From contig BPJI01000001.1 in NCBI GenBank assembly GCA_026004535.1, positions 233,491-297,490 of the forward strand: DNA of 64,000 bases. The letters are read 5' to 3'. The translations under genes and the position numbers were made by a program. Of the stretch, positions 4,991 through 20,187 are shown piece by piece (positions within the stretch are counted from its first letter, which is position 1; every line of letters begins with the position of its first letter). The notes beneath the pieces were generated by a model that was not told the DNA's origin, made no database searches, and saw only the letters and a list, made by a program, of their open reading frames with translations. This DNA is from Candidatus Parcubacteria bacterium (GTDB lineage: Bacteria; Patescibacteriota; Minisyncoccia; UBA6257; HR35).

Positions 4991-5217
4991 CTTAAAGCTT
5001 CCATAATTTCTTCAGGTGAAAAACCAATAATAATTTTGCCTTCAATGTCAATAACTGGAACGCCATATTGCCCTGATTTTTCTACCATTTCATTTGCCCA
5101 CTCGTTATTTGTCTCAACATTTCTTTCCTCATATTCATAGCCCTGCTTTTTAAGGAATTCTTTTGTTGCTTGACACCAAGGACAATGGGTTGTTGTATAA
5201 ATAATTATTTTTTTCAT
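4987..5217 (-). CDS. glutaredoxin-like small thiol-disulfide protein (CPWC)
   Basis: 76 aa, CPWC active site near N-terminus. Translationally coupled to trxB. Confidence 0.6.
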   Translation of the reverse strand: MKKIIIYTTTHCPWCQATKEFLKKQGYEYEERNVETNNEWANEMVEKSGQYGVPVIDIEGKIIIGFSPEEIMEALR

Positions 5218-5855: not shown

Positions 5856-5906
5856 GATTAAAAATTTTTTAATCTCGACAAGTTTATTATAACATATAAT
5901 TTATTT

Positions 5907-7790
5907 ATGAGAGAAAAAATAAGAAATTTTGCCATAATTGCTCATATTGATCATGGTAAATCAACTTTAGCTGATAGATTTTTGGAAATTACTGGAACTG
6001 TAAGTAAAGATAAATTAGTGCCTCAATATTTAGATAGACTTTCTTTGGAAAGGGAAAAGGGAATAACAATAAAGATGCAGCCAGTAACAATGGAATATCA
6101 AGGCTATATTTTGAATTTAATTGATACTCCTGGTCATATTGATTTTAATTATGAAGTTTCAAGAGCCTTAGCCGCAGTTGAAGGAGTAATTTTACTCATT
6201 GATGGAACTCAAGGTGTTCAAGCCCAGACAATTCATAATTTAGAATTAGCAAAAAAACAAAATTTAGTTATTATTCCTGCGATTAATAAAATTGATTTAG
6301 AAATTCACAATTTAGATGATCTACTTGAAGATATTTATAGATTAACAGGCGAAAGAGAGGTATATTTAATTTCGGCTAAATTAGGAACAGGAGCCGAGGA
6401 ATTATTAAAAGCAGTAATTGAAAAAATTCCTTTCCCAAACGGTTGTGAAAATTACCCAGATATAAACCAGATAAAATTACCCGGATATAAACCAGATAAA
6501 ATTAGTTATCAGGGCGATAATATATCCGGTTCTCATCCGGGTAATACATCCGGTCAACATCTGGGTAATATAGCAGGCAAAGCATTAGTTTTTGATTCTC
6601 ATTTTGATTCTTATAAAGGAATAATTGCCCATGTTAGAATTTTTGAGGGTGAATTTAGAAAATTTCAGGAAGCTTATCTAAGGCAAGCAAAATATAAATT
6701 TAAGATTCTAGAAGTTGGAATTTTTAAACCAGAACTCGAAGAAAAGGAAAAATTAGAATCAGGAATGATTGGTTATCTGGCTACTGGGATTAAAGATCCG
6801 GGAATTTTAAAAATTGGTGAGACAATAACTTTTGATTTAGATACCGAACCACTTTCTGGTTATCAGGAACCAAAACCAGTTGTTTTTGCTTCTGTTTTCC
6901 CTTCAACTAATATTAGTTTTGAAAATTTTGAAAATAGTTTAAAGAAATTTCAATTACAAGATCCTTCAATCTATTTAGAAAAGACAAACTCGCCATTTTT
7001 GGGCAAAGGCTATAATGTTGGAGCAATGGGGCTACTTCATTTAGAAATTTTTGAACAAAGATTAAAAAGAGAATTCCAAACTGATATTATTTTAACTTTA
7101 CCTTCAATTAGATATAAAGCAGTTTTAAAAAATAATCAAGAAGTTTTTATTATTAATCCAAATGAAATTGATTTAGCCCAAGTTTTATATTTTGAAGAAC
7201 CATTTATTGAAGTTGAAATATTTACGCCAATAACTTACAGTGAAAATATTTTTAGTTTAATTAGAAATTCAAGAGGAATAATAAAAAATCAAGTAGTTGA
7301 AGGAAGTTTTTTAAAAATTGTTACTGAAATGCCCTTAGAGGAATTAATTTCGGGATTTTATGATGAATTAAAATCAGTTTCTTCTGGTTATGCTTCATTA
7401 AGATGGCAATTTTTGGATTACCGAAAATCTGATTTAGTTAAATTAGATATTTTAATTGCTGAACAAACGGAGTCAAGCCTTTCAAGGATTATTCATCGAG
7501 ATAAGGCTGAAAAAATTGGCAGAAAAATTCTTTTAGAATTAAAAGAAAATTTGCCCCGAGAAGAATTTGCGATTAAATTACAAGCAGCAATTAATAATCG
7601 AATCATTGCCCGAGAAACTATTCCTGCTTTAAGAAAGGATGTTGCTGGTTGGCTTTACGGTGGTGATCGAACAAGAAAAATGAAATTATGGCAAAAACAA
7701 AAAGAAGGTAAGAAAAAATTACAAGAATTAGGCAAGGGTAAAGTAAAAATTCCTAATGATGTTTTATTAAAAATTTTAAAAGTTCGATGA
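5907..7790 (+). CDS. lepA: translation elongation factor 4 (LepA) carrying a ~40-aa in-frame repeat-derived insertion
   Basis: GTPase motifs AHIDHGKST, DTPGH, NKID. LepA C-terminal domain present. Residues ~185-228 are encoded by a CCGGAT-family array. Confidence 0.9.
   Translation: MREKIRNFAIIAHIDHGKSTLADRFLEITGTVSKDKLVPQYLDRLSLEREKGITIKMQPVTMEYQGYILNLIDTPGHIDFNYEVSRALAAVEGVILLIDGTQGVQAQTIHNLELAKKQNLVIIPAINKIDLEIHNLDDLLEDIYRLTGEREVYLISAKLGTGAEELLKAVIEKIPFPNGCENYPDINQIKLPGYKPDKISYQGDNISGSHPGNTSGQHLGNIAGKALVFDSHFDSYKGIIAHVRIFEGEFRKFQEAYLRQAKYKFKILEVGIFKPELEEKEKLESGMIGYLATGIKDPGILKIGETITFDLDTEPLSGYQEPKPVVFASVFPSTNISFENFENSLKKFQLQDPSIYLEKTNSPFLGKGYNVGAMGLLHLEIFEQRLKREFQTDIILTLPSIRYKAVLKNNQEVFIINPNEIDLAQVLYFEEPFIEVEIFTPITYSENIFSLIRNSRGIIKNQVVEGSFLKIVTEMPLEELISGFYDELKSVSSGYASLRWQFLDYRKSDLVKLDILIAEQTESSLSRIIHRDKAEKIGRKILLELKENLPREEFAIKLQAAINNRIIARETIPALRKDVAGWLYGGDRTRKMKLWQKQKEGKKKLQELGKGKVKIPNDVLLKILKVR
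6450..6580. repeat. CCGGAT-family palindromic array embedded in-frame in lepA
   Basis: attacccagat/attacccggat forward copies then atccggttct/atccgggtaat/atccggtcaa reverse copies. No stop codon in the lepA frame. Confidence 0.85.
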
Positions 7791-8866
7791 AGCTTTTAAT
7801 CCAAAAAGTAAAAGATGTAAGAATAGATGATAAAGATTACCCGGATAAGGACCAGATAGAGTCACCCGGATTTAAACCGGATATGATTAACTACCCGGAT
7901 AATAACCGGATAGAACTATCCGGATTTGAACCGGATAAAGTTAATCATCTACAAGATGAGAAACAAATAAAACTAATTTTGAGTGATTTAACAAATAAAA
8001 TCATAGGTATTTTATTTAAAGTACATAATATATTAGGTCCAAGCTTTAAAGAAGTACAATATAAAAAAGCAATAGAGGACGTTCTATTAAAGGAAAACAT
8101 AGATTTCAAAAAAGAAATCTCTGTCCATATAGATTTTAAATCATTTAAATTAAAAGATTTAAGAATTGATTTTATCATCGAAAATAAATTAATATTGGAA
8201 GTCAAGTCTAAGCCGTTTCTTACAAAAGAAGATATGAGACAAACTTTAAGATATTTAAAAGTTACAGATCTACCCCTAGCCATATTAGTCAATTTCAGAA
8301 GAAAAAAGTTAGAATACAAAAGAATAATAAATCCTGAAGTAATAGATAAATATAGCCCATCCGGTGAAAATCAGGGTAACCAATCTGGTAAACATCCGGG
8401 TAATAACATATCCGGTAATCATCCGGGTAATATATCCGGTTTTCATCCGTGTAATAACATATCCGGTTCTCATCCGGGTAAAATATCCGATAAATATCCG
8501 GGTAATAATTTATTATTAATTTATGTTGGGATTGAAAAAGGAGATGAAAATAAAAATTTAGAAGAAATTGTTAATTATTTAGAAAATTTACAAATTATTG
8601 ATGAAAATGGTAAATTTGCAAAAACAATGAAAGAAACAAAGCCTGTTTTTGTTTTTATTTCTAATATAACTTTATTAGCTGGGTTTGAAAAGGGAAGAAT
8701 AAATTTTAATCGAGCTTTAGAACCAAAATTAGCCAAAGAAATTTTCAAAAAATTAATCCAGGTTTTTAAAAATAAAGGTTATCAAGTTTTTTCTAAAGAA
8801 TTCGGCAGTTATTTAGAGATTACCTCCACTAATGTTGGTCCAATAAACTTTTATCTTCAAATTTAA
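7787..8866 (+). CDS. dtd: D-aminoacyl-tRNA deacylase reading frame interrupted in-frame by a ~670-bp composite element (fusion protein or inactivated gene)
   Basis: N-terminal MKLLIQKVKDV and C-terminal LLLIYVGIEKGDE..SNITLLAG..NVGPINFYLQI match Dtd motifs (MIALIQRV / LLVLLGVEKDD / SQFTLAAD / NDGPVTFWLQV). The 224 codons between them are repeat + GxxExxY module. ATGA overlap with lepA stop. Confidence 0.6.
   Translation: MKLLIQKVKDVRIDDKDYPDKDQIESPGFKPDMINYPDNNRIELSGFEPDKVNHLQDEKQIKLILSDLTNKIIGILFKVHNILGPSFKEVQYKKAIEDVLLKENIDFKKEISVHIDFKSFKLKDLRIDFIIENKLILEVKSKPFLTKEDMRQTLRYLKVTDLPLAILVNFRRKKLEYKRIINPEVIDKYSPSGENQGNQSGKHPGNNISGNHPGNISGFHPCNNISGSHPGKISDKYPGNNLLLIYVGIEKGDENKNLEEIVNYLENLQIIDENGKFAKTMKETKPVFVFISNITLLAGFEKGRINFNRALEPKLAKEIFKKLIQVFKNKGYQVFSKEFGSYLEITSTNVGPINFYLQI
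7838..8509 (+). mobile_element. composite element: forward CCGGAT array (7838-7948) + GxxExxY PD-(D/E)xK nuclease module (7949-8353) + reverse CCGGAT array (8354-8509)
   Basis: Terminal arrays are reverse complements of each other and belong to the same family as the cargo-less arrays elsewhere in the window. The whole element is stop-free in the dtd frame. Confidence 0.55.
7949..8353 (+). other. GxxExxY-family PD-(D/E)xK nuclease-like domain (no own ATG; in-frame with dtd)
   Basis: LTNKIIGILFKVHNILGPSFKEVQYKKAIEDVL..RIDFIIENKLILEVKSK..LRYLKVTDLPLAILVNFRRKKLEYKRII matches the GxxExxY consensus (E.LT..IIG..vH..LGpG.lEsvYe.AL..EL; D..v.....vELK; llnYlk.tg...gllINF). Confidence 0.65.
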
Positions 8867-10645: not shown

Positions 10646-11047
10646 CTAGTTAGTTTTAACTTCGAGTGTTTTTTTCAAAATATTAACTAACTCATTTAAA
10701 TCTGTTGCTTTTCTTAAATAGTCAACCGCGCCAATTTCACCAGCAATTTTTTTATGATATTTAGCCAACTCAGCATCTAAATCGTCAATTGAAGTAATAA
10801 AGAAAATTTTTATATTTTTAAGTTCAGGATTTTCTTTGATAGCCAAAAAAGTTTCTACTCCATCCATTTCAGGCATGGTATTATCTAATAAAATAACATC
10901 AGGTTTGTTAGTTTTTAAAATTTCTAAAGCAACTTTACCATTTTCAGCCTCTAAGACATTAAAATTGGCAGATTGTAATTTTATCTTCCATATCTCACGA
11001 AAATTTTTATCATCATCAACAATTAAAATCAAAGGTTTATTATTCAT
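10646..11047 (-). CDS. response regulator, receiver domain only (CheY-like)
   Basis: ILIVDDD..DVILLDNTMPEMDG..K motif set, 133 aa, no output domain. Confidence 0.75.
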   Translation of the reverse strand: MNNKPLILIVDDDKNFREIWKIKLQSANFNVLEAENGKVALEILKTNKPDVILLDNTMPEMDGVETFLAIKENPELKNIKIFFITSIDDLDAELAKYHKKIAGEIGAVDYLRKATDLNELVNILKKTLEVKTN

Positions 11048-11439
11048 TGCAAAAATTCTTTTATTTTTTTAATTATATCAGGCAAATCAGTTGTTTTACG
11101 GATAACCCCAACCGCTCCAATGCTTTTGGCATAATTATCATCAATTTTTGTTCCATCGTTATTATATTGTAAATTGGTAATTAAAATTATTGGTGGACAT
11201 TCTTTGCCAAGATCTCTTTGCAAATAACAAAACAGACTAAAACCATTTAAAATAGGCATTGATAAATCTAAAAGAATTAAATCAGTATTTTTGCAAACAG
11301 AAATATTTTTTAATGCTTCCTGAGGATCAGTAAAACCAATGACATCAAAGCCCTCTTTTTTAAGAACAAATGAAAAGAGTTCAACAAATGATTTTTCGTC
11401 GTCAATTAAAACAATTTTTTTGGCCATTTGTTCGGCCAT
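11044..11439 (-). CDS. response regulator, receiver domain only (CheY-like)
   Basis: VLIDDE..LILLDLSMP receiver motifs, 131 aa. 4-nt overlap with downstream receiver gene. Confidence 0.75.
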   Translation of the reverse strand: MAEQMAKKIVLIDDEKSFVELFSFVLKKEGFDVIGFTDPQEALKNISVCKNTDLILLDLSMPILNGFSLFCYLQRDLGKECPPIILITNLQYNNDGTKIDDNYAKSIGAVGVIRKTTDLPDIIKKIKEFLQ

Positions 11440-11478
11440 TAATTAAATTATAATACTAAATTTGTCAAGATGTCAAGC

Positions 11479-13068
11479 TCAAGAAATTGGCAATTTTACA
11501 TAAAATTTACTTCCTTTACCTTCGCCTTCTGATTCAGCCCAAATTTTACCCTGATGAGCCTCAACTAAATTCTTGACAATGTAGAGTCCTAAACCAGTGC
11601 CTCTAATTTCTTTTTTAATTGAAGGATCGCGAACAAATTCACCAAAAAGCTTGCTTTGTAATTCTTTTGACATTCCAATACCAGAATCACTAACACAAAT
11701 TAATAATTCATTATTTTCTTTATTAACACTTACCTTAACCCATCCTTGAGAAGTATATTTAATAGCATTATCAATTAAATTTTGGATAATTTGAGCAAAT
11801 CTTAATTTATCAACTTTCAGAATTATTTGCTCAAGATTAGTTTCAAAACTTAGCTCTAAATTCTTTTCTTTGGCTAAGAGTATAAAATTATTTACAATTT
11901 CTTTAATCAAACCAATAATTTCGACTTCTTCAAAGTTAAGCTCTAATTTTCCTTCTTCAATTCGACGATAATCCATAAATTCTTCAATTAAAACTAAAAG
12001 TTTATCAACTGAATCCTTAATTTTTTTGGCAAAATCTTTTGCTTGCTCAGGTACATTTTCGATTCCATCAGCAATCAACTCAGCATAACCTTTAACAACC
12101 GCCATGGGTGCTTTCACCTGATGAGACGCAAACGAAAGAAACTCCGACTTAATTCTGTTTAATGTTTCCAATTTTTGATTGAGTTTAGCTAATTTTTCTC
12201 GTTGTTCAATCTCTTGATAGACAGAACGGATTAGGAATATACTGAGAACGAAAGATAAAGCTAAAATAGTCAATCTAGTTATAATTTCTACAAAGTTTTT
12301 GTACTGGCTTAATTCGAATAAATTAACTAATAAAAGAACGATAATAAAAATCGCTGCTGAGGCCAATTTAACGTTGAATAATTCATATTTGTGAATTCCT
12401 AAACTTAAACTTATTATGAATGGTAACATAAAAAAACCACTGAAAGGAATAAAATTAGAATTATTAAAAAAATTAGGAAAAATAAAATCAAAAGTTATTA
12501 CTAGGAATGAAGTAAGCAAAAATGAAACTATTATTAACAAATATTTACCTTTTTCATTTTTGCTTCGTAAATACTTAACTACCAGATTTTTTAAAGCCAA
12601 TAAGTTAAAATATATAGTTGTTAAGCCGAAAATGATGATACCAAATTTTCGTATTTCTGGATTTAGTGGATTAATAGAAATAATTTTAGAAACCAATAAT
12701 TGTGTTAAGCTTATAATTGACATCAGTGATGTTAAAAATAGATGAATATAGAAAACTTTCTTGTTTCCTGACAATCTTTCGTCGGGGTAAAAGTATGAAA
12801 TTGCATATATAAGAAAATTGATCCAGGCAGCAGTAAAAAGTAAAAACCTAAAAATAATTAATGTGATGTTATAATCTGTAGATTTAAATAATAATACGGC
12901 CAAAAGGGACCATATTGCCACAAGAATTGTATAAATGAAAAAAACTATATTTGTTAAGCTTTTTCTATTCTTTAAATAAGCGATATACCCCAGGATAAAA
13001 ATAACTATACTAGTAGCTGTTGCTATTGTGATATCAAAATTTAAAATTATATTTCTAACAATTTCCAT
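11479..13068 (-). CDS. sensor histidine kinase with ~7-TM N-terminal sensor region
   Basis: Multiple predicted TM helices in the first 270 aa. H-box SHQVKAP, HATPase G-boxes DSGIGM, GTGLGLYIV. Confidence 0.8.
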   Translation of the reverse strand: MEIVRNIILNFDITIATATSIVIFILGYIAYLKNRKSLTNIVFFIYTILVAIWSLLAVLLFKSTDYNITLIIFRFLLFTAAWINFLIYAISYFYPDERLSGNKKVFYIHLFLTSLMSIISLTQLLVSKIISINPLNPEIRKFGIIIFGLTTIYFNLLALKNLVVKYLRSKNEKGKYLLIIVSFLLTSFLVITFDFIFPNFFNNSNFIPFSGFFMLPFIISLSLGIHKYELFNVKLASAAIFIIVLLLVNLFELSQYKNFVEIITRLTILALSFVLSIFLIRSVYQEIEQREKLAKLNQKLETLNRIKSEFLSFASHQVKAPMAVVKGYAELIADGIENVPEQAKDFAKKIKDSVDKLLVLIEEFMDYRRIEEGKLELNFEEVEIIGLIKEIVNNFILLAKEKNLELSFETNLEQIILKVDKLRFAQIIQNLIDNAIKYTSQGWVKVSVNKENNELLICVSDSGIGMSKELQSKLFGEFVRDPSIKKEIRGTGLGLYIVKNLVEAHQGKIWAESEGEGKGSKFYVKLPIS

Positions 13069-13069
13069 A

Positions 13070-14134
13070 TTATAACCAATTTATTATTGGTTGTCTTTTA
13101 TAAGATACTGCTGATGGAGGCTGTGTCTTTCCTATTCTAAAAAGAAAAGCTAAAATTTTATTTTTTTCATTAACATCAAAAACGTCAATTATTTTTTGAT
13201 AAGATTCATTTATTATTTGTTTTTCTCTTTTACTAAAGGTATTATCATCTTCTGAATTGATTCTTTGCCATAAAAACGGTACTCCTGTAATTAAATGAAA
13301 ACCTAAATTTAATTTTGTAGATCTGAGCCAGATATTTTCTAATAATTTCCCGGCATAGATAAAATCAGAATCATTATTGTTGATGAACATACCGCCGATT
13401 AAGGCACACGATTGAGCTGTTTTAATGCTACCTTGATTAATTTTTTTGACAAAACCTATCTTTTTAAAAATACTTAATATCGGCCAATATCTAAAAAGTT
13501 TAAAAATTTTAATTGCCTGGGGAGGTATTTCTAGTGTTCTTACGTATAATCCACTTTTATAGTGTTGCTCTTTCTCTTCAAATAAAATCTCTTTAAACAT
13601 AAGTTTATGCATTGTTCTGTTCGAAAAATTTATCAATGAATCCTTAGTAATATTCTGTGCTAAATTTTCTATTTTTGTTCTATCGTCTATTAGGATAACC
13701 TTGCACTGAGGATAATTCGATATTTCTTTTAATAGAAAAGTTTTTTCGTTTTCTTGAAGTGGTTCAGTGCTGAATGGTTTTCTGTTAGAGCATCTTTTTT
13801 CAATAAATTCAAAAAGATCTTCATTGCTTTCTGTGTCTGAGTTTAGCGGTATAAATCTTATTGCCAAAGATATTCTATTACGAGGAAAAATTTCGTAATT
13901 TATTTTGTAACCAAAATGTTTAGCAGCTATTTCTATGTTTTCTAATAAGGCGCCATGAGCAATATAGGTCCCTCGGTTTTTATAATTTAATATTGGATGA
14001 TCTTTTTCTGGCAGCATAACCACTTCTAAAACTGATTCATTGATTTTAACATTAAATTCCCATGGTTGAGAGTTTCCACCAGAAGGAGCAAGATTACCAG
14101 CTTTAATTATTTGTTCTAACAATTCTTTTTCCAT
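13070..14134 (-). CDS. nitroreductase-superfamily protein with two tandem half-domains (SagB/McbC-type dehydrogenase-like)
   Basis: APSGGNSQPWEF motif near N-terminus and second RCSNRKPFSTEP nitroreductase start ~110 aa later. 2-nt gap to the kinase gene. Confidence 0.55.
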   Translation of the reverse strand: MEKELLEQIIKAGNLAPSGGNSQPWEFNVKINESVLEVVMLPEKDHPILNYKNRGTYIAHGALLENIEIAAKHFGYKINYEIFPRNRISLAIRFIPLNSDTESNEDLFEFIEKRCSNRKPFSTEPLQENEKTFLLKEISNYPQCKVILIDDRTKIENLAQNITKDSLINFSNRTMHKLMFKEILFEEKEQHYKSGLYVRTLEIPPQAIKIFKLFRYWPILSIFKKIGFVKKINQGSIKTAQSCALIGGMFINNNDSDFIYAGKLLENIWLRSTKLNLGFHLITGVPFLWQRINSEDDNTFSKREKQIINESYQKIIDVFDVNEKNKILAFLFRIGKTQPPSAVSYKRQPIINWL

Positions 14135-14168
14135 TCTTATATTATATTTTTATTTTAATTAAAATTTT

Positions 14169-15284
14169 TCAAAAATTAAAAAACTTTCTAATTTTATTTA
14201 AAAATTTTTTTCTTTTGATTTCATTTTTGTTAAATTCAGGATCTAAAATTTTTTCGATATTGAAATCATATTTTCCCGATCTGATTTTCTTACCCAGAAG
14301 AATACTTCTTACAGTATAGGCAGTTATGCCAGCCGAGATGAAGGCTGCTGTTGAGAGCTGGGGCCAAGAATATAATGTTTTTCCTATTTCTAATACTGAA
14401 GTTAAAGATCTTAAAGGTACTAAGTTTAAATCTATAATTTTAGCCATTGCTTCATAAAGTTTTTGTGGTGATTTTTTTATCTCATCGAAATTAAATCCTG
14501 TTAATCGCCCTCCAAAAATTTCTAAATTTTTATCAATATCAAACCTTTCAACATCTAAAATAACATTATCGCCATTATCAGTAGCCATAACAACAGGAAT
14601 TTTTAGCTTTTTAGCTTCTTCTCGAATTTTAACTTTGATTACAACATCGTCTAGCTCTTCGATAATAATATCCAATCCTCTAATGAAAGTTTTGTAATTC
14701 CTATCATTAAGACCTTCGTTAAATACTTCTATTTTTAAATAGGGATTTAATTGATAAGCAAAGCAAAATAATGCTTCAGTTTTATTTGCCCCGACCCAGG
14801 TGAAATCAAATGGCATTCTGTTTAAATTACTAGGAGCAATAAAATCTGGGTCAGATATTTTAAAATGTCTTCCCACGCCCATCAATAAAAGACATAAAAA
14901 TATATTACTTCCAACACTTAAACCAGCAATACCTATTTTAGAGTTATAAATTTTATTCTGTTCTTCGAGGGTAATTAGGTTTCTATTTCTTGCCAACCTA
15001 ACTTCCTGGTGCAATTTATCTGGTAAATAATGAACCAAATATTTATTCCATGGAAAATAAACCCAATTACCCAATTTTGTTAACGATTTACCATTCGTAT
15101 GTTTTTTTACAAACAGTTCAAATTCTTGTTGATAATTTTTATTAAATTTGAATCGTGGATTCCTTATTAAAAACAAATCCTCGAGTTGAAGCTTATAAGT
15201 ATCAATTATTCTATTAACTTTATATTTTCTTGAAAATTCTTTTAAATTTAATTTGTCAGCTTTGATAATTATCGGCTTAAGCAT
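14169..15284 (-). CDS. E1-like ThiF/MoeB/MccB-family adenylyltransferase with ~85-aa N-terminal extension
   Basis: RLARNRNLITLEEQNKIYNSKIGIAGLSVGS (Rossmann/GxGxxG) and ISDPDFIAPSNLNRM (E1 DxD...SNLNRQ motif). The Cys-free N-terminal extension precedes the E1 core. Confidence 0.7.
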   Translation of the reverse strand: MLKPIIIKADKLNLKEFSRKYKVNRIIDTYKLQLEDLFLIRNPRFKFNKNYQQEFELFVKKHTNGKSLTKLGNWVYFPWNKYLVHYLPDKLHQEVRLARNRNLITLEEQNKIYNSKIGIAGLSVGSNIFLCLLLMGVGRHFKISDPDFIAPSNLNRMPFDFTWVGANKTEALFCFAYQLNPYLKIEVFNEGLNDRNYKTFIRGLDIIIEELDDVVIKVKIREEAKKLKIPVVMATDNGDNVILDVERFDIDKNLEIFGGRLTGFNFDEIKKSPQKLYEAMAKIIDLNLVPLRSLTSVLEIGKTLYSWPQLSTAAFISAGITAYTVRSILLGKKIRSGKYDFNIEKILDPEFNKNEIKRKKFLNKIRKFFNF

Positions 15285-15285
15285 T

Positions 15286-16803
15286 TTATCTGGTTAAAAC
15301 CCATTTATGTTTACTGCCTGATTTAAAAAATTTTTCATGTCCATATGGCCAAAATATTAATTTTGGATAAGCTCTTTCTTTTAAATTGTTTGACAATTCT
15401 CTATATTCCGATGATTTTTCTCTTAAGGTTTCAACAATTTTTTTAAGGGCTATTTTCTCGTAATATTTTTTAAAAACAACCCCCTTTTTAAGTTCTAAAT
15501 TAATTTCTAAATATTGATTTTGTTTAGGGTTATATTTTGTTGTCATGGTAAATTTGCCTGTTAGGAAGCTGGATAATTCTTTACTTAATATAGCTGATTT
15601 TATAAACTCTGGAAAGATTAAAATAGCATATAAAGTCGTAGCTAAATTTTTCCGTTCATAAACATAAACAAAAGGCAGTTCAAATAATAAACTATCTATT
15701 TTGTATTTTCTGGCTATTTTAATAATATCTAGTTTTTTATTTTTAAAATAATCTTTAAAATATGAATAATTGAATATTCCTCCTCTATCGCCAATTTGAT
15801 ATCTAATTAAAGGTATAGCATTATCACCTGTTAGAATTAGTTCGCCATTTTCTTCTTCAAAATTCACAAAATAAGGTATAAATTGCGCTAAAGTAGGAGT
15901 TTTGCTGATGTCGCCGAATGTCTCCTTTAAAAAATTTTTATTTTTAACACAAAGATGTCTGATTAGGGCTGCTAACGGTGTTTCAAAGGCGGTAGCACCA
16001 AATTCAGAAGAGCCATAAGCGTTCATTATGTCTAATAGTATATTAAGATTAAGTTTTTCTTTGAAGTAATATTTTAATTCTTCAGGGAAAGGTTCGCCCG
16101 CTAAAATTAATCTTATTTTAATCCTGGAAATGTCAATTTTACTATCAATAAGTTCATCAATTATATCTTTGACAAATGGAGGATAGCCTGCTATTATTAT
16201 TTGTCTATAGTAAGGCGCAATATCTTTAAAAATTTTGATTACTTCTTGTTTATTAACCCCAGGTGAAATAATTGAAAGATTTGTCCGGCCTAATGCATTG
16301 CCTAAATAGCAACCTAATAACATCCCGACGCCAGCACTCCAGACGCCCATTCCAAAAGTAATAATAAATAATGTCGGTTTGGTTAAAAATGATGGACGAT
16401 AACTTAAAAATAATTCTGTTCCTATCTCTCGAATTAAGTCAAATCTCGGTTCTCTAAAAAAATATGTTGGTTTACCGGTTGTGCCTGATGAAGCATGGAT
16501 AGTTAGGGGTTTTTGAAAAGTGCCATCCCATAATAATTTTTTATAATCATAATAATGAACATAATTTTCTTTTGTTGTTGGAGGTAATAATTTAAAATCT
16601 TCTAAAGTTTTTATTTTTTCAGGATTAACTTTATTTCTTTTGAGAAAGTCTTTATAAGCAGGTACTTTCTGAGCCGCCATGTGAAAAAGTTTTAGGGTGC
16701 GTTCTTCTTTTATTTTATCCCAATCTTTAATTTTATTTATCTTGATTTCTGATATTATTTTATTAATAAATTTCCTGAATTGTTTTATATTATGGGGAAA
16801 CAT
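15286..16803 (-). CDS. adenylate-forming enzyme, PaaK/coenzyme-F390-synthetase-like (ANL superfamily)
   Basis: AMP-binding P-loop ASSGTTGKPT and YQIGDRG motif typical of the phenylacetate-CoA ligase clade. 505 aa. Confidence 0.65.
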   Translation of the reverse strand: MFPHNIKQFRKFINKIISEIKINKIKDWDKIKEERTLKLFHMAAQKVPAYKDFLKRNKVNPEKIKTLEDFKLLPPTTKENYVHYYDYKKLLWDGTFQKPLTIHASSGTTGKPTYFFREPRFDLIREIGTELFLSYRPSFLTKPTLFIITFGMGVWSAGVGMLLGCYLGNALGRTNLSIISPGVNKQEVIKIFKDIAPYYRQIIIAGYPPFVKDIIDELIDSKIDISRIKIRLILAGEPFPEELKYYFKEKLNLNILLDIMNAYGSSEFGATAFETPLAALIRHLCVKNKNFLKETFGDISKTPTLAQFIPYFVNFEEENGELILTGDNAIPLIRYQIGDRGGIFNYSYFKDYFKNKKLDIIKIARKYKIDSLLFELPFVYVYERKNLATTLYAILIFPEFIKSAILSKELSSFLTGKFTMTTKYNPKQNQYLEINLELKKGVVFKKYYEKIALKKIVETLREKSSEYRELSNNLKERAYPKLIFWPYGHEKFFKSGSKHKWVLTR

Positions 16804-16824
16804 TTTTTTAAATTTTTATCGTTT

Positions 16825-17289
16825 TTAAACATTTTTAGTAACTTCATTATATGACTTGCCATTAGTAACTAAAATGCCGATAAAAAACCCCGAACCTTTT
16901 ATGTACCGATGTGAGTGCTTAATACCAGCTGGTATATAGACAGCAACAGGTGAATTTAATATATAATTTTCATCACCTAAAAATACTTCTACTTTTAAAC
17001 CTTTAAGATTTTTTTTATTTCCAATCCACATATACATTTGATCAACAGAATGACTATGATATGAAACATGAGGTTTTGTATTTTTAACATTATCTAAAAC
17101 CCTACAAGCTACGAATAACTTACCTTTTGGGTTATTAATATTATCAGAAAATTTATACAAATATGGAGTAAGCCCTTTAACTATATGATGAGCCGACATA
17201 TTGGTAAATAATTCTTTTCTAGGAGTTAAAATTAAGTTTTTAAATTTATTTTTATGAGTCGTTTTTTTATTTTTTTGTGTTCGTTTCAT
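16825..17289 (-). CDS. small cupin-fold protein (likely starts at internal Met ~17196)
   Basis: HSHSVDQMYMWI...GD..YIPAGIKHS resembles the two-motif cupin signature. K-rich N-terminal 30 aa probably not translated. Confidence 0.4.
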   Translation of the reverse strand: MKRTQKNKKTTHKNKFKNLILTPRKELFTNMSAHHIVKGLTPYLYKFSDNINNPKGKLFVACRVLDNVKNTKPHVSYHSHSVDQMYMWIGNKKNLKGLKVEVFLGDENYILNSPVAVYIPAGIKHSHRYIKGSGFFIGILVTNGKSYNEVTKNV

Positions 17290-17569
17290 TGTTTTAGAAT
17301 AATTAAATTACGACATTGAGAATTATAAATATTATTCAAATTTGATATAAACTTCGACCTTACTTTGCTCTGTCTATTTGTTTTTTGCCTAAATTCAACC
17401 AATAATCAGATGGTAGTGTTTTTAATTCCTTTAATCTTTTATCTCCTCTTTGTGGATATTTAAAATATATAAATTTTTTATTATCCGTATAAAGTTTTTA
17501 AAATAACGTTTTTTTGAAATTTCAGACAATTTTCAACAATTTCAGATAGTGTATTTTAAACTAATTCTT

Positions 17570-17930
17570 CCTTAGTAAGCCATTTGATTTCTTCTACATT
17601 TTCAGGCGGTTCGAAGTTGTTTTGTTGATTTTTGTTATCAAGATAGCATACAATTACTGTTTTGAAAAAACCCTTGCTTTGTTTTATTAAGCGAAAATCT
17701 AAGGTATTTTGTACTTGATACATTGCTTTTACTTTATAACCTGTTTCATAGAGTACTATCTTTTCGGCTGCTTGTTCTCTTATATCTCCTTTTAATTGAT
17801 CGCCACTTGGAGTAAACCAAATAGGTCCGGGGTCATAATTTACTTCGCAAACTTCTAAAAAGCCTTTGGGAATTTCCTTTTTAACACCTAAAATTTCGTT
17901 CTTTTCATTAAAAACTCAAATAATTATGAA
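17570..17930 (-). pseudogene. NUDIX-hydrolase-like remnant without usable start codon
   Basis: Minus-strand translation gives ..PSGDQLKGDIREQAAEKIVLYETGYKV.. (Nudix-box-like G-x5-E-x7-REuxEExG pattern). The frame is bounded by a stop with no in-frame ATG until late. Confidence 0.3.
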
Positions 17931-18244
17931 GAATTGCATTTATATTTAATATTATAATTATATCATAACTTTACAAATCTATAATTTAATTTGATCTTGG
18001 TGATAGAGTAAATATAATTTTTTTTATTTTTTATAATCTTATTTTTTTATATTATATAATTTTAAATGACATTTATAGTTATTAATTAATACAATAGTAA
18101 TAGATAATTTCTCAATTTCTTAAGAAATTGAGAAAATCAGGTTAAAACACTTTAAATTCAATTTCCAACATGTGGAAGGCTACAAAACCCTCAATTTTCC
18201 TTAATTTTTTAACCTCCTCCAACTCTTGACAAATTGATTCTTGA

Positions 18245-18276: not shown

Positions 18277-18314
18277 TATTAAAGTAGAAATCTAAAAGAA
18301 AGGAGGTGAGAAAG

Positions 18315-19295
18315 ATGGAAATCCAAAATTTAATGAGACAAAATGAAATTCAAAGTCAGAAAGGAGGTAAAATGATGCGTCAGGTGACCCAGCAGCAGGT
18401 GAATCGTTGGCTTAGTGGTAGTCTTGACTTTATGTGGCTCGAGATCGCCAAAAAGTGCAACTTGCGATGCATCCACTGTTACGCTAGCTCCAGCCTACAC
18501 CTTCCTCTTTTTGGAAAAATGAGTAAAGAGGATCGGGAAAGGGTGCTTGATGAAGGTATTCAATTAGGATGCCGCAGAGTTCAGTTCATTGGCGGTGAAC
18601 CAACTCTTCGCCCACATCTTTTCGAACTCATCCAACATGCCAAAGATGTTGGTTATGAGTTCATTGAGGTGTTCACTAACGGGACAATCCTCAACGATCA
18701 AAGACTGCACAGGATCAAGAAGTTAGGCGTTCACCTTGCTTTTTCGCTCTATGCCAACAGCCCTGACATTCATGAAAAAATTACCCAAAGCAATGGTAGT
18801 TTTTACAGGACCTTGGGTAATATCAAAAAGGCTGTCGGCATGGGCATCCCAGTGCGCGTTGGTGTCATTGTTATAAATGGCATCAATGACCACGTCGTTG
18901 CAAACACTCTGTCTATGCTCCAAGAAATTGGAGTTCAGAATGTTAAAACAGACAGAGTGCGAGGGATTGGTCAAGGAGCAGAACTTAATCCCAACCAAGA
19001 TTCTTTTGCCGAACTCTGTGGAGAGTGCTGGAAAGGGAATATCAGGATTGATGCTGATGGCAAAGCTTCGCCGTGTGTGATGTCGTGGTTCTATGAAGTC
19101 GGGGAGGTTAGCCAAACTCGAGGGCTTGCAGATGTTGTGAGCTCTTCGAGATTAGCTGATTTTAGGAAGAAGATGGCTGATATAAATCTTAGTTCAAATC
19201 AGCCATTAAACTGTAACCCTCCATGCCCAGTCCTATGTGGCCCGGATGAAGGATGCGATCCTTGCGTTCCAATTTGCGATCCGTGTCAACCATAA
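18315..19295 (+). CDS. radical SAM enzyme with C-terminal SPASM/twitch-like Cys cluster and Cys/Pro-rich tail; GC-rich horizontally acquired gene
   Basis: CNLRCIHCY (CxxxCxxC), GGEP motif, C-terminal CGECWKG..ASPCVMSWF cluster, tail CNPPCPVLCGPDEGCDPCVPICDPCQP. Two SD-ATG pairs (AGGAGGTGA-N5-ATG at 18315; AAGGAGGT-N4-ATGATG at 18372). GC ~50% vs ~30% flanks. Confidence 0.8.
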   Translation: MEIQNLMRQNEIQSQKGGKMMRQVTQQQVNRWLSGSLDFMWLEIAKKCNLRCIHCYASSSLHLPLFGKMSKEDRERVLDEGIQLGCRRVQFIGGEPTLRPHLFELIQHAKDVGYEFIEVFTNGTILNDQRLHRIKKLGVHLAFSLYANSPDIHEKITQSNGSFYRTLGNIKKAVGMGIPVRVGVIVINGINDHVVANTLSMLQEIGVQNVKTDRVRGIGQGAELNPNQDSFAELCGECWKGNIRIDADGKASPCVMSWFYEVGEVSQTRGLADVVSSSRLADFRKKMADINLSSNQPLNCNPPCPVLCGPDEGCDPCVPICDPCQP

Positions 19296-19407: not shown

Positions 19408-20187
19408 ATGAAGTTAAGATTAAATTTTAAAGTTAATCCCTATTATTTATTAGCGAGTTATTTTGATTATTATGAAAATATTTTTTGGTGGGACCCTGAA
19501 AAGTATGATGATTTTTTAAAAGTTAAAAGGTTCCCTAAGTTTTTATACCAATCATTTTGGTTAAGAGAAAATAAAAGAATATTTTTAAAAGTAAATAACA
19601 AAAGATCTTTAAAACAATTATTTAATCTGCTTTATAAGAACTCCCGAGAATTATTTAATAAAATTTTAGAATCAAAAGAATTTAAAAAATTTCTAAAAGA
19701 GACCGAAGATTACTCTCAATGGTTAGAAAATGAATGGAACTTAAAAAAAGATATAGTCCTTAAAAATTTAGAAGATATTACTGGCCTAAAGATAATTGAT
19801 AAAAATTTAAATGTTGATGTTTTTGTTGTTAAACCACCTCTAAAAGGTGGTTTTGTTATTCCTCATAAAAAAATAATTGTCTGGGGGCATAGTGAGGATT
19901 GGTCTAATTATTCAATTGTCTATCTTTGCCATGAACTTTTACATATCTTAACTTATAAAAAATATAAACATCCTAACTTAATGCATGCTTTAATTGAATT
20001 AGCAACTGACAATGAATTAAGAATAAGACTTAATGGAGGTAAATATCCTCCTTTTGTTGGTCATTCTTATTTAGAAAATATAAAAAAGAAAATCTATCCT
20101 ATTTGGAAACAATATCTAAATAAAAAATTAAAAGTAAAAGATATTATTGAATTAGAAGAATTGATTTTGAGAAAGAAAATTATCTAA
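19408..20187 (+). CDS. hypothetical protein with HExxH motif (possible zinc-dependent hydrolase)
   Basis: YLCHELLHILT HExxH motif. No other recognisable domains. Confidence 0.3.
   Translation: MKLRLNFKVNPYYLLASYFDYYENIFWWDPEKYDDFLKVKRFPKFLYQSFWLRENKRIFLKVNNKRSLKQLFNLLYKNSRELFNKILESKEFKKFLKETEDYSQWLENEWNLKKDIVLKNLEDITGLKIIDKNLNVDVFVVKPPLKGGFVIPHKKIIVWGHSEDWSNYSIVYLCHELLHILTYKKYKHPNLMHALIELATDNELRIRLNGGKYPPFVGHSYLENIKKKIYPIWKQYLNKKLKVKDIIELEELILRKKII

What the first reader, a model, noticed from the sequence alone, without database searches (positions are those of the whole stretch)
10646..17289. Seven-gene minus-strand operon: cupin - PaaK-like ligase - E1/ThiF-like - tandem nitroreductase - histidine kinase - two receiver-only regulators
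Seven genes are packed with 0-35-nt gaps or overlaps on the minus strand. An E1-like adenylyltransferase with an extra ~85-aa Cys-free N-terminal domain sits next to a nitroreductase-fold dehydrogenase with two tandem half-domains. The N-terminal domain has the size expected of the leader-peptide clamp of MccB/PaaA/TOMM C-proteins. This pairing is the classic B/C pairing of thiazole/oxazole-modified-microcin synthetases and of MccB-type peptide adenylation. Here no YcaO is present, and a PaaK/F390-synthetase-like ANL ligase and a cupin are present instead. Direct fusion of this enzymatic set to a 7-TM sensor kinase and two CheY-like single-domain regulators is unusual. It suggests a signal-controlled peptide- or metabolite-tailoring system of undescribed composition. 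No precursor peptide ORF of 60 aa or more is visible, and a very short one (MccA-like) could be missed.
Basis: inference. Interest (0 to 1): 0.75.

Follow-up and report, generated by a model that had tools for sequence, protein, structure and literature searches.

The report
Oxazolone-type synthase cassette with sensor kinase
The E1-like enzyme and nitroreductase-fold protein are a split relative of the recently characterised bacterial oxazolone synthetases (OxzB, TrzS, TyzB/TyzC), here joined to an ATP-dependent ligase and a membrane sensor kinase in a cassette conserved across ultra-small Patescibacteria, which makes it a candidate small-molecule signalling module rather than a peptide-modifying system.

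Summary
The seven minus-strand genes are real and tightly packed. The window is from a hot-spring Candidatus Parcubacteria MAG.

The E1-like protein and the tandem nitroreductase are the two halves of an Rv1355c/TrzS-type protein. [quoted passage not shown] It converts N-acyl amino acids into oxazolones.

None of the TOMM/MccB features tested was found:
- There is no SagB-type match and no YcaO.
- No small ORF is conserved near the cassette.

The order ligase, ThiF, oxidase, multi-pass histidine kinase recurs in Patescibacteria genomes. The ligase is present in 65 of 66 informative loci and the kinase in 62 of 67. The N-acyltransferase of the characterised oxazolone systems was not found. A PaaK-like adenylating ligase occupies that place.

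The slot upstream of the ligase holds a Trp-dehydrogenase-like enzyme, an aminotransferase, or (here) a cupin. This points to aromatic amino-acid or arylpyruvate substrates.

Best reading: a CoA-independent route to an oxazolone-type metabolite, genetically locked to a sensor kinase. The chemistry and the kinase's ligand are inferred, not shown. I class it as a new variant of a known kind.

The parts
16825..17289 (-). Cupin-like accessory protein (154 aa) with a Lys-rich N-terminus, in the slot just upstream of the ligase.
   Evidence: No Pfam or significant NCBIfam hit. Best PDB matches are cupin-superfamily proteins 6j4b (E 4e-5) and 7eqk (E 3e-3) over residues 72-141, with the HxHxxD and PAGxxH motifs aligned. 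It is 89% identical to the gene at the same position in L081. A 67% homologue lies between the oxidase and the kinase in L086. It is absent from the other 80 loci.
15286..16803 (-). PaaK/F390-synthetase-like ANL adenylating ligase (505 aa). Proposed N-acylating, CoA-independent step (inferred).
   Evidence: TIGR02155 74 bits against a cut-off of 646. Nearest solved structures are phenylacetate-CoA ligases (4r1l, E 6e-11). ANL motifs are conserved in 67 orthologues: TSGSTGxP, YG, RYxxgDxGG and a C-terminal GxKQkW. It is adjacent to ThiF in 65 of 66 informative loci.
14169..15284 (-). ThiF/E1-like adenylating cyclase (371 aa). N-terminal domain is residues 1 to about 95 (14994-15284), followed by the E1 core.
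   Evidence: PF00899 79 bits. NF005901 'Rv1355c family' 266 bits, residues 8-353 against model positions 21-345 of 722. It is 34% identical over 312 aa (E 1e-51) to a PGAP-named Rv1355c family protein. Invariant residues include R96, R99, N100, D145, D147, N153, R156, K168 and D212. AF2 model pLDDT 88.7.
13070..14134 (-). Flavin-dependent oxidase of the nitroreductase superfamily (354 aa, two-lobed, Acg-like). Proposed C-alpha/C-beta desaturase.
   Evidence: NF005901 160 bits (model 374-713), NF011424 162 bits, Acg family NF047509 112 bits, and no SagB-type hit. It is 25% identical over 288 aa (E 5e-22) to the C-terminal half of the Rhodococcus Rv1355c family protein. The APSGdNSQPW and RxtNRK motifs are conserved in 63 orthologues. 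The oxidase is fused to ThiF in L031 and L079.
11479..13068 (-). Multi-pass membrane sensor histidine kinase (529 aa).
   Evidence: HisKA 52 bits, HATPase_c 101 bits, HisKA_7TM 23.9 bits (below cut-off) over residues 18-233. About 9 hydrophobic segments. Present in 62 of 67 informative loci. The membrane region is as conserved as the kinase core, with W53, R74, Y88, Q123 and K234 at 90% or more.
11044..11439 (-). Receiver-only response regulator 1 (131 aa).
   Evidence: PF00072 59 bits. No output domain. The acidic pocket and the phospho-acceptor Asp (LILLDLSMP) can be read in the sequence.
10646..11047 (-). Receiver-only response regulator 2 (133 aa). It overlaps regulator 1 by 4 nt.
   Evidence: PF00072 85 bits. 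Receiver-only ORFs cluster near the cassette in 16 of the 80 loci, often just upstream of the ligase.
17322..17351 (-). Promoter-like site upstream of the cupin gene (TTTATA-18-TATAAT, 10 of 12).
   Evidence: This is a consensus match only, in an AT-rich region.
11447..11476 (-). Perfect sigma-70-like consensus (TTGACA-18-TATAAT) in the 39-nt gap between the kinase and regulator 1.
   Evidence: This is a consensus match only. It suggests the regulator genes may also be transcribed separately.

Best explanation
The core of the operon (ligase, ThiF-like protein, nitroreductase-fold oxidase) is a small-molecule pathway of the oxazolone-synthetase type.

Step 1 (inferred). The PaaK-like ANL ligase uses ATP to activate a carboxylic acid. 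It joins that acid to the amino group of an amino acid, probably an aromatic one. This gives an N-acyl amino acid without needing an acyl-CoA. The ligase thereby replaces the acyl-CoA-dependent N-acyltransferase (OxzA, TyzA, TrzA) of the characterised systems.

Step 2 (by homology with TrzS, TyzB and OxzB). The ThiF-like protein adenylates the carboxylate of that N-acyl amino acid. The amide oxygen then attacks to close a 5(4H)-oxazolone ring.

Step 3 (by homology with TrzS, TyzC and OxzB). The FMN oxidase desaturates C-alpha/C-beta to give the conjugated 4-ylidene oxazolone.

Accessory enzymes. Different lineages place different enzymes around the core. I found a Trp-dehydrogenase-like ELFV dehydrogenase, a HisC-like aminotransferase, a weakly methyltransferase-like protein, an alpha/beta hydrolase, and (in this window) a cupin. 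These probably supply or tailor the amino-acid or 2-oxo-acid building block.

Kinase. The multi-pass histidine kinase is locked to the enzymes across the phylum. The most likely reason is that it senses the product or a precursor. It would then pass phosphate to receiver-only regulators, whose output is protein-protein rather than transcriptional. This last step is inference from gene linkage only.
For: Homology:
- The two proteins match the two halves of NF005901 'Rv1355c family' colinearly (266 and 160 bits).
- Naturally fused Patescibacteria homologues match the model end to end at 450-452 bits.
- BLASTP to a PGAP-named Rv1355c family protein gives E 1e-51 for the ThiF protein and E 5e-22 for the oxidase.
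- Rv1355c is TrzS, shown in vitro to cyclise with ATP and then desaturate with O2 to make N-acyl tryptazolone (PMC12856293).
- The split TyzB/TyzC pair and the fused OxzB do the same chemistry (PMC10404671 and bioRxiv 10.1101/2020.06.11.147165).

Catalytic competence:
- The E1 ATP-site residues and the FMN motifs are conserved.
- The ANL adenylation motifs are conserved.

Linkage:
- The ligase is present in 65 of 66 informative loci and the kinase in 62 of 67.
- The ligase stop and the ThiF start are 1 nt apart here.
- Linkage survives gene-order changes in L017, L045, L068, L076, L062 and L086.

Missing acyltransferase:
- No acyltransferase family is among the conserved neighbours.

Substrate hints:
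- The slot upstream of the ligase holds an ELFV dehydrogenase in 22 loci. Its best match is the Trp dehydrogenase ScyB at 311 bits.
- The same slot holds a HisC-like aminotransferase in 12 loci.
- The cupin's best PDB relatives are small cupins. I recall these as the indolepyruvate epimerases MarH and StnK3. That identity was not verified with tools.

Sensor:
- The membrane region of the kinase is as conserved as its catalytic core.
Against: - No product is known. All of the chemistry is by homology at 25-34% identity.
- The fused homologues fall just under the NCBIfam equivalog cut-off (450-452 against 476 bits).
- Nothing shows that the ligase forms an amide. It could make an acyl-CoA or nucleotidylate something, as its relatives PaaK and F390 synthetase do.
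- The dehydrogenase or aminotransferase slot could mean that the ligase substrate is a 2-oxo acid, or something else entirely.
- TrzS needs O2. Many Patescibacteria live with little oxygen.
- Kinase linkage does not say what the kinase senses.
- The regulators have no output domain and may have their own promoter.
- The window itself lacks the dehydrogenase, aminotransferase and TrpRS neighbours seen elsewhere.
Confidence: 0.55

Rival explanations
1. Same chemistry, different role. The cassette makes an oxazolone-type or related reactive metabolite that is not a self-signal. It could be an antimicrobial or host-directed effector, or a membrane or stress metabolite. In that case the kinase senses an outside cue (host contact, nutrient, redox) rather than the product.
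For: The physiological role of oxazolones is unknown even in Mycobacterium. The authors discuss stress-linked and antimicrobial ideas alongside signalling. Oxazolone production in proteobacteria was induced by sub-inhibitory antibiotics. Variable tailoring genes around a fixed core are typical of natural-product clusters in general.
Against: The kinase is retained next to the enzymes in 62 of 67 loci and through rearrangements. That is tighter than usual for a generic regulator. The regulators lack DNA-binding domains, so simple transcriptional control of the operon is not evident.
Confidence: 0.25
2. Catabolic or salvage pathway for aromatic acids and amino acids. The ligase would be a true aryl-CoA ligase like PaaK. 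The dehydrogenase or aminotransferase would feed arylpyruvate metabolism. The nitroreductase-fold protein would act as a reductase. The two-component system would sense the substrate.
For: The ligase's nearest named and solved relatives are phenylacetate-CoA ligases. Amino-acid dehydrogenases and aminotransferases are classic catabolic enzymes.
Against: The PaaK equivalog score is 74 against a cut-off of 646. No other paa-type or beta-oxidation genes are among the conserved neighbours. [quoted passage not shown]
Confidence: 0.1
3. One reading: a ribosomal-peptide (TOMM- or MccB-like) or peptide C-terminus tailoring system. The E1-like protein would bind a leader peptide through its N-terminal domain, and the nitroreductase would act as a SagB-like dehydrogenase.
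For: An E1-like protein paired with a nitroreductase-fold protein recalls TOMM C/B proteins. MccB and PaaA appear among the structural matches of the E1 core. Chemically, a peptide C-terminus is an N-acyl amino acid, so oxazolone-type chemistry on a peptide is conceivable.
Confidence: 0.06
4. Housekeeping sulfur-carrier or ubiquitin-like activation (MoeB, ThiF or Uba-type), or TcdA-like tRNA modification.
For: Generic ThiF/MoeB/TcdA models match the E1 core at 38-80 bits. Database names such as 'molybdopterin/thiamine biosynthesis adenylyltransferase' are attached to homologues.
Against: All those matches are far below their cut-offs and cover only residues ~95-240. No MoaD/ThiS/ubiquitin-like small gene is conserved nearby. 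No invariant Cys exists for a zinc site or thioester. The invariant partner is an FMN oxidase.
Confidence: 0.03

Closest known systems
TrzS (Rv1355c, formerly 'MoeY') with TrzA, from Mycobacterium and Rhodococcus: N-acyl tryptazolone synthesis (PMC12856293)
   Same: The architecture matches: an N-terminal domain, a ThiF-like cyclase, then an Acg-type flavin-dependent oxidase. The window's two proteins align colinearly with the two halves. Fused Patescibacteria versions exist. The E1 ATP-site Asp and Arg residues and the FMN motifs are conserved.
   Different: The protein is split into two genes here. Identity is 25-34%, and the fused forms score just below the family cut-off. No TrzA-type N-acyltransferase was found; a PaaK-like ANL ligase is the invariant partner instead. 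A histidine kinase is co-conserved. In Mtb the neighbours are c-di-GMP turnover genes, and a GGDEF gene lies next to the Rhodococcus plasmid homologue.
TyzB (ThiF-like) + TyzC (flavin-dependent oxidase) + TyzA, from M. tuberculosis: N-acyl tyrazolone synthesis (PMC10404671)
   Same: The cyclase and oxidase are encoded as two adjacent genes, as here. The chemistry is ATP-dependent cyclisation plus O2-dependent desaturation of an N-acyl aromatic amino acid.
   Different: TyzA is an acyl-CoA-dependent acyltransferase whose closest structural homologues are the N-acyl amino acid synthase FeeM and the AHL synthase BjaI. No ligase and no kinase are described in that cluster. I could not compare sequences with TyzB or TyzC directly.
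OxzB/OxzA of Pseudoalteromonas rubra, the first oxazolone synthetase (bioRxiv 10.1101/2020.06.11.147165)
   Same: A ThiF-nitroreductase pairing that makes oxazolones from N-acyl Tyr or Phe.
   Different: OxzB is a fused di-domain enzyme reported in alpha-, beta- and gamma-proteobacteria, typically with oxzA immediately upstream. Here the partner is a ligase, and the host phylum is Patescibacteria.
TOMM synthetase (SagB dehydrogenase, SagC E1-like, SagD YcaO) and the MccB/PaaA peptide adenylating enzymes
   Same: An E1-superfamily fold is paired with a nitroreductase-superfamily flavoenzyme. Both use ATP-driven cyclodehydration logic followed by flavin-dependent oxidation.
   Different: No YcaO, no SagB-type signature, no RRE or peptide clamp, and no precursor peptide. 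The resemblance is at superfamily level only.
Autoinducer synthase plus membrane receptor kinase pairs such as LuxM/LuxN, CqsA/CqsS and AgrBD/AgrC (from general knowledge; not tested here)
   Same: Genes for making a small hydrophobic acyl-type molecule sit beside a multi-pass histidine kinase. The authors of the TrzS paper note that N-acyl oxazolones resemble acyl-homoserine lactones.
   Different: There is no sequence relationship and no evidence yet that the kinase binds the product. The regulators here have no DNA-binding domain.

Membership tests
Oxazolone synthetase (OxzB / TrzS / TyzB+TyzC) | ThiF-like adenylating cyclase with conserved ATP-site residues | tested here: met
   NF005901 266 bits over residues 8-353. 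34% identity, E 1e-51, to a PGAP-named Rv1355c family protein. R156, K168 and D212 are invariant in 18 homologues. D212 aligns with the Asp of the 'EECDS' stretch in the Rhodococcus protein. The corresponding Asp217 was shown to be essential in TrzS.
Oxazolone synthetase (OxzB / TrzS / TyzB+TyzC) | Acg-like flavin-dependent oxidase of the nitroreductase superfamily, adjacent to or fused with the ThiF part | tested here: met
   NF005901 model positions 374-713 at 160 bits; Acg family at 112 bits. E 5e-22 to the C-terminal half of the Rhodococcus protein. Adjacent in 73 of 80 loci and fused in L031 and L079. FMN motifs conserved.
Oxazolone synthetase (OxzB / TrzS / TyzB+TyzC) | Score at or above the curated NCBIfam equivalog cut-off for the Rv1355c family (476 bits) | tested here: not met
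   Fused Patescibacteria homologues score 450.5 and 452.4 bits. The split window proteins score 266 and 160 bits.
Oxazolone synthetase (OxzB / TrzS / TyzB+TyzC) | Neighbouring N-acyltransferase (OxzA/TyzA/TrzA) that supplies the N-acyl amino acid | tested here: not met
   No acyltransferase family is among the conserved neighbours of 80 loci. tblastn with a 259-aa hypothetical protein encoded divergently next to the Rhodococcus Rv1355c-family gene, and with a GNAT, found nothing in the window or in 81 loci. Whether that hypothetical protein is a TrzA homologue was not verified, and the test is weak for very divergent proteins.
Oxazolone synthetase (OxzB / TrzS / TyzB+TyzC) | ATP-dependent cyclisation and O2-dependent desaturation yielding an oxazolone | not testable with these tools
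   This needs enzymology or heterologous expression with non-hydrolytic work-up (describes the pitfalls).
TOMM synthetase / MccB-type peptide adenylation | SagB-type dehydrogenase signature (TIGR03605) | tested here: not met
   No hit at E <= 0.01 in NCBIfam.
TOMM synthetase / MccB-type peptide adenylation | YcaO cyclodehydratase in the cluster | tested here: not met
   None of the seven genes is one. No such family is among the conserved neighbours of 80 loci.
TOMM synthetase / MccB-type peptide adenylation | N-terminal leader-peptide recognition domain (RRE or peptide clamp) | tested here: not met
TOMM synthetase / MccB-type peptide adenylation | Precursor peptide gene | tested here: not met
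   No ORF of 12-75 aa is conserved in more than 2 loci within the cassette region. Operon gaps are at most 39 nt. The upstream region is not conserved with L081. A precursor encoded elsewhere cannot be excluded.
MoeB/ThiF sulfur-carrier activation | Adjacent MoaD/ThiS-type carrier, Cys-based zinc site, and a score above the family cut-off | tested here: not met
   MoeB, ThiF and TcdA models score 19-80 bits, all below their cut-offs. No invariant Cys. No conserved small neighbour.
Phenylacetate-CoA ligase PaaK | Equivalog-level similarity (TIGR02155 cut-off 646 bits) | tested here: not met
   74 bits over residues 31-339. It is a member of the wider PaaK-like ANL clade only. The adenylation motifs are conserved.
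Two-component system | HisKA H-box and HATPase_c in the kinase; receiver domain with phospho-acceptor Asp in the partners | tested here: met
   HisKA 52 bits, HATPase_c 101 bits, Response_reg 59 and 85 bits. H316 and the N/G boxes are conserved at 90% or more.

The most novel reading that the evidence does not exclude
The cassette would be a self-contained chemical-communication module of Patescibacteria. The ligase, ThiF and oxidase would make a lineage-specific oxazolone-type autoinducer from aromatic amino-acid-derived units. The variation between lineages would come from the dehydrogenase, aminotransferase, cupin and methyltransferase-like genes. The co-inherited multi-pass kinase would be its receptor, signalling through receiver-only regulators. 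This would assign a physiological role, signalling, to the oxazolone family. I found no earlier description of a signal/receptor pair in these ultra-small episymbiotic bacteria, although my literature search was limited.
Probability: 0.25. Interest if true: 0.85.

Novelty: new variant of a known kind. Interest (0 to 1): 0.66.

Why it matters
Oxazolone synthetases were described only from 2020 onward, and their physiological role is still an open question. The authors of the TrzS paper list signalling as one possibility.

This cassette offers three things.

First, it extends the enzyme family to Patescibacteria. The genome scan found relatives in 222 stretches, and the best 80 loci carry essentially the same core.

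Second, it shows a different way of feeding the pathway. An ATP-dependent ligase takes the place of an acyl-CoA-dependent acyltransferase. This would make sense in organisms with minimal lipid and CoA metabolism, but that rationale is inference.

Third, it provides a genetic link between oxazolone-type enzymes and a dedicated membrane sensor kinase. That link turns 'are oxazolones signals?' into a direct experiment: make the product and test it on the kinase.

Signalling and host-interaction chemistry in Patescibacteria are almost unknown. A conserved small-molecule and sensor module would be a useful entry point there.

Tried and rejected
- **Exact-sequence contig look-up.** The look-up for the window's ThiF protein found nothing. 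The source was identified through the 100% identical hit P0001.
- **Alternative genetic code.** I suspected this because of an in-frame TGA in a NUDIX remnant. It was rejected because TGA ends 14 of the 47 ORFs of at least 150 aa, including overlapping gene junctions.
- **Full-length Foldseek against PDB.** It returned only E1-core matches. The top hit was AclA of Tenacibaculum discolor (9egb), whose function I could not find in the library.
- **afdb50 fold search.** The library was unavailable. No structural comparison with AlphaFold models of TrzS, OxzB or TyzB was possible.
- **Literature.** No paper in the library combines ThiF, nitroreductase and PaaK, uses 'PaaK-like', or links Patescibacteria with oxazolone, ThiF or phenylacetate-CoA ligase.
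- **Ind3 of the indolmycin pathway.** I recalled it as a PaaK-like amide or oxazolinone-forming enzyme. The paper I could read confirms only that Ind3 with Ind6 performs an ATP-dependent coupling. It does not state the PaaK-like homology, so this remains a lead from memory.
- **PDB entries 6j4b and 7eqk.** I could not verify that they are MarH and StnK3. Only the function of MarH and StnK3 was confirmed.
- **Accessory genes in the window.** A search of the window for the dehydrogenase, aminotransferase, TrpRS and methyltransferase-like genes seen in related loci found none.
- **Conserved small ORFs.** None found.
- **Unused tools.** The protein-representatives search and the metagenome scan were not run. 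The top hits of both earlier protein searches were saturated by Patescibacteria orthologues, so these would have added little.

Full report
**1. Observation**

Spacings are 21, 1, 34, 1 and 39 nt, plus one 4-nt overlap.

The window has about 26-34% G+C. It uses the standard bacterial code, because TGA ends many long ORFs, including at overlapping junctions.

It comes from a hot-spring Candidatus Parcubacteria MAG (KatS3mg096). The E1-like protein, the ligase and the cupin-like protein each have a 100% identical database entry from that genome.

- a PaaK/F390-like ANL ligase;
- a ThiF-type E1-like protein with a Cys-free N-terminal domain of about 90 residues;
- a two-lobed nitroreductase-fold protein;
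- a HisKA/HATPase_c kinase behind a multi-pass membrane region;
- two receiver-only regulators.

The kinase's HisKA_7TM match is below cut-off, and a crude hydropathy scan finds about nine hydrophobic segments.

The 154-aa 'cupin' has no Pfam or significant NCBIfam match. It does align across the cupin core with two small PDB cupins: 6j4b at E 4e-5 and 7eqk at E 3e-3.

**2. What the E1-like and nitroreductase pair is**

The decisive result comes from NCBIfam. The E1-like protein matches the N-terminal half of NF005901 'Rv1355c family protein' (residues 8-353 against model positions 21-345 of 722, 266 bits). The nitroreductase matches the C-terminal half of the same model (positions 374-713, 160 bits). 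It also matches PRK14851 and the Acg family of FMN oxidoreductases. There is no SagB-type hit.

Related Patescibacteria genomes contain natural fusions of the two genes (L031, L079). These align with NF005901 end to end at 450-452 bits, just below the 476-bit cut-off.

Direct BLASTP against a PGAP-named Rv1355c family protein on a Rhodococcus plasmid gives two colinear matches:
- ThiF protein: 34% identity over 312 residues, E 1e-51.
- Oxidase: 25% identity over 288 residues, E 5e-22.

Rv1355c has been characterised as TrzS (PMC12856293). [quoted passage not shown] It performs ATP-dependent cyclisation and then O2-dependent desaturation of N-acyl-tryptophan, giving an N-acyl tryptazolone.

Two other systems do the same chemistry on N-acyl Tyr or Phe:
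- the split pair TyzB/TyzC (PMC10404671);
- the fused OxzB of Pseudoalteromonas rubra (bioRxiv 10.1101/2020.06.11.147165).

The residues expected for catalysis are conserved in the Patescibacteria family:
- The E1 motifs are invariant in 18 homologues: RxxRN, DxD, NLNR, K168 and D212. D212 aligns with the Asp of the Rhodococcus 'EECDS' stretch.
- The flavin motifs APSGdNSQPW and RxtNRK are conserved in 63 orthologues.

**3. Tests of the peptide (TOMM/MccB) reading**

None of the features tested was found.
- There is no SagB-type signature.
- There is no YcaO gene in the operon or among the conserved neighbours.
- That domain is part of the Rv1355c-family model, so it is shared with the family of TrzS, an enzyme whose substrates are small molecules.
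- Gaps inside the operon are at most 39 nt.
- The region upstream of the cupin is not conserved even in the relative whose ThiF is 80% identical.
- A systematic search found no ORF of 12-75 aa conserved in more than two loci.

MccB and PaaA do appear among the structural matches of the E1 core. They rank below AclA, ThiF and MoeB, and they superpose poorly over the full length.

**4. Conservation and anatomy of the cassette**

A scan of one genome per species found 222 stretches encoding relatives. The scan used two peptide motifs taken from the Patescibacteria alignment. The best 80 loci are all Patescibacteria by record title or by their cassette content. They include Kaiser-, Wolfe-, Lipton-, Lloyd-, Magasanik- and Doudnabacteria and Paceibacterota. 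A few records carry other taxonomic labels.

I matched the window's proteins to ORFs of these loci. Among loci with enough flanking sequence:
- the ligase accompanies ThiF in 65 of 66;
- the kinase accompanies ThiF in 62 of 67.

The usual order is ligase, ThiF, oxidase, kinase. Linkage survives rearrangements:
- ThiF, oxidase, ligase, kinase in L068 and L076; L017 and L045 show the same ThiF, oxidase, ligase order, but no kinase was matched there;
- an oxidase-kinase pair displaced together in L062;
- oxidase, cupin, kinase in L086.

The membrane region of the kinase is as conserved as its catalytic core. Polar and aromatic residues W53, R74, Y88, Q123 and K234 are conserved at 90% or more. 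This is what one expects of a ligand-binding sensor under constraint.

Receiver-only regulators cluster near the cassette in 16 of the 80 loci, often just upstream of the ligase. In the window they follow the kinase. A perfect sigma-70-type consensus lies in the gap before them. This is a consensus match only.

**5. What replaces the acyltransferase, and what the accessory genes say**

In every characterised oxazolone system, the N-acyl amino acid is made by an acyl-CoA-dependent N-acyltransferase encoded next door. I found no such family among the conserved neighbours. Direct tblastn found nothing either, though that is a weak test.

The invariant partner is instead a PaaK-like ANL enzyme of about 500 aa. 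Its P-loop, hinge and C-terminal lysine motifs are conserved. It is far from true PaaK: 74 bits against a cut-off of 646. Its nearest solved structures are PaaK proteins at E 6e-11.

The gene immediately upstream of the ligase is on the same strand, usually within 40 nt. It varies by lineage:
- an ELFV amino-acid dehydrogenase in 22 loci, whose best named match is the tryptophan dehydrogenase ScyB (311 bits, below cut-off);
- a HisC-like class I/II aminotransferase in 12 loci;
- the cupin, in the window and its close relative.

The dehydrogenase and the aminotransferase are unrelated enzymes. Both interconvert an amino acid and its 2-oxo acid.

The cupin's best PDB relatives are two small cupins. 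I recall these as MarH and StnK3, which are epimerases of beta-methyl-indolepyruvate (function per PMC4742848). I could not verify the PDB-entry identities. They are consistent only in length and in being about 80% identical to each other.

Further tailoring-type genes occur:
- A protein of about 310 aa with weak, sub-threshold methyltransferase matches lies between the oxidase and the kinase in 9 loci. It is fused to the oxidase in a tenth, L073.
- An alpha/beta hydrolase occupies that position in L075.

A tryptophan-tRNA ligase gene also recurs. It lies directly after the kinase in 9 loci and within about 5 kb in 6 more. These loci span sub-clades that have different upstream genes.

Taken together, the picture is a fixed four-gene core with lineage-specific genes that supply or tailor a building block. 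Several weak pointers favour aromatic substrates, possibly tryptophan or indolepyruvate. None of these accessory genes other than the cupin is in the window.

**6. Mechanism proposed**

| Step | Status |
|---|---|
| Homology of the ThiF and oxidase pair to oxazolone synthetases, with conserved catalytic motifs | Shown |
| Phylum-wide linkage of ligase, ThiF, oxidase and kinase | Shown |
| No OxzA/TyzA/TrzA-type acyltransferase detected | Shown, within the limits of the search |
| ThiF adenylates the carboxylate of an N-acyl amino acid and closes the oxazolone ring | Inferred from family knowledge |
| The oxidase desaturates C-alpha/C-beta | Inferred from family knowledge |
| The ligase makes the N-acyl amino acid directly through an acyl-adenylate, without CoA | Inferred from gene content only |
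| The dehydrogenase, aminotransferase or cupin prepares the amino-acid or 2-oxo-acid unit | Inferred from gene content only |
| The kinase senses the product or a precursor and signals through receiver-only regulators | Inferred from gene content only |

The ligase step has an alternative that my data cannot separate. The 2-oxo acid itself could be the acyl donor.

**7. Comparison with the known, and novelty**

The closest known systems are TrzAS, TyzACB and OxzAB. The system most likely works like them at the cyclase and oxidase steps.

As a matter of membership, it falls just outside the curated Rv1355c equivalog, and I did not find the family's usual acyltransferase partner.

None of the three oxazolone papers mentions Patescibacteria. 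The 2023 paper has no occurrence of 'ligase' or 'kinase', and the OxzB preprint mentions 'ligase' only in its reference list. No paper in the searchable library links Patescibacteria with oxazolones, ThiF or phenylacetate-CoA ligase. The library does not cover all journals, so this is absence in what I could search.

I class the finding as a new variant of a known kind. The enzymology is known. The ligase-fed composition, the new phylum and the fixed partnership with a sensor kinase are new.

**8. Verdict**

The broader intuition does hold: this is a signal-linked tailoring system of undescribed composition.

Interest is moderately high. The cassette is very widely conserved in a poorly understood phylum, and it offers a concrete handle on the unanswered question of what oxazolones are for.

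Noticed in passing
window 17556-17948 (minus strand): NUDIX-hydrolase remnant. The reading frame MQFFIII*VFNEKNEILG... has an in-frame TGA at codon 8, and no alternative start occurs before Met-77. The downstream part still scores above the Pfam NUDIX cut-off (30.7 bits). It is probably a pseudogene. The close relative L081 has an intact 172-aa NUDIX gene next to a receiver gene, 2.8 kb beyond its kinase.
   Followed up: partly
window 18306-19295 (+) and 19408-20187 (+): Radical SAM/SPASM protein with an unusual Cys/Pro-rich C-terminal tail (CNPPCPVLCGPDEGCDPCVPICDPCQP). Local G+C is higher (0.34 against about 0.27 in the flanks). Two good Shine-Dalgarno/ATG pairs sit at its 5' end. Homologues of this gene and of the following 259-aa protein (which has no family match) also lie a few kb upstream of the cassette in L058. 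Function and any link to the cassette are unknown.
   Followed up: partly
window 7787-8866 (+): One 359-aa ORF combines the very N-terminus and the C-terminal approximately 115 residues of a D-Tyr-tRNA deacylase. Inserted in frame are a PD-(D/E)XK (PDDEXK_3) domain and a run of GNHPGNISG-like repeats. It looks like a domain insertion into dtd.
   Followed up: no
related loci, e.g. L002, L008, L011, L015, L027, L030, L043, L061, L078: A tryptophan-tRNA ligase gene (TIGR00233, 310 bits, above cut-off) follows the cassette's kinase within 10-71 nt in 9 loci. It lies within about 5 kb in 6 more. These loci span sub-clades with different upstream genes. This could be inherited synteny or a hint that the pathway is tied to tryptophan. 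The window has no TrpRS.
   Followed up: partly
L073:11126-13138, and between oxidase and kinase in L016, L028, L032, L037, L040, L043, L059, L064, L067: A protein of about 310 aa has only sub-threshold SAM-methyltransferase matches. It is inserted between the oxidase and the kinase in 9 loci and is fused to the oxidase in L073. L075 has an alpha/beta hydrolase at that position.
   Followed up: partly
L083 (Streptomyces sp. NBC_01426 plasmid) 6923-8697: A 390-aa ThiF-family protein aligns with the window protein from residue 3, so it includes the N-terminal domain. It is followed by a GNAT acetyltransferase, and no flavin oxidase is annotated nearby. It may be another variant of the cyclase/acyltransferase theme.
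   Followed up: no
L082 (Rhodococcus plasmid) 2917-7010: The plasmid-borne Rv1355c family gene sits beside a GGDEF-domain gene. This echoes the c-di-GMP genes flanking trzAS in M. tuberculosis noted by the TrzS authors. Oxazolone-type enzymes thus recur next to signalling proteins in two phyla.
   Followed up: no
PDB 9egb/9egc/9egd: The closest solved structure to the E1 core is 'AclA from Tenacibaculum discolor in complex with substrate' (released 2025; Foldseek E 4e-16, 25% identity, core only). I could not find its function in the paper library.
   Followed up: partly
window 38739-39989 (+): A prepilin-like ORF (MNKKMNKSFTLVELLVVLALIAILATV...) stops after 106 aa. About 0.7 kb further on there is a fragment ending in a LamG-like motif (LIDEVRIYNRALSDQEIKALY). 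This may be a disrupted large pilin-like gene.
   Followed up: no
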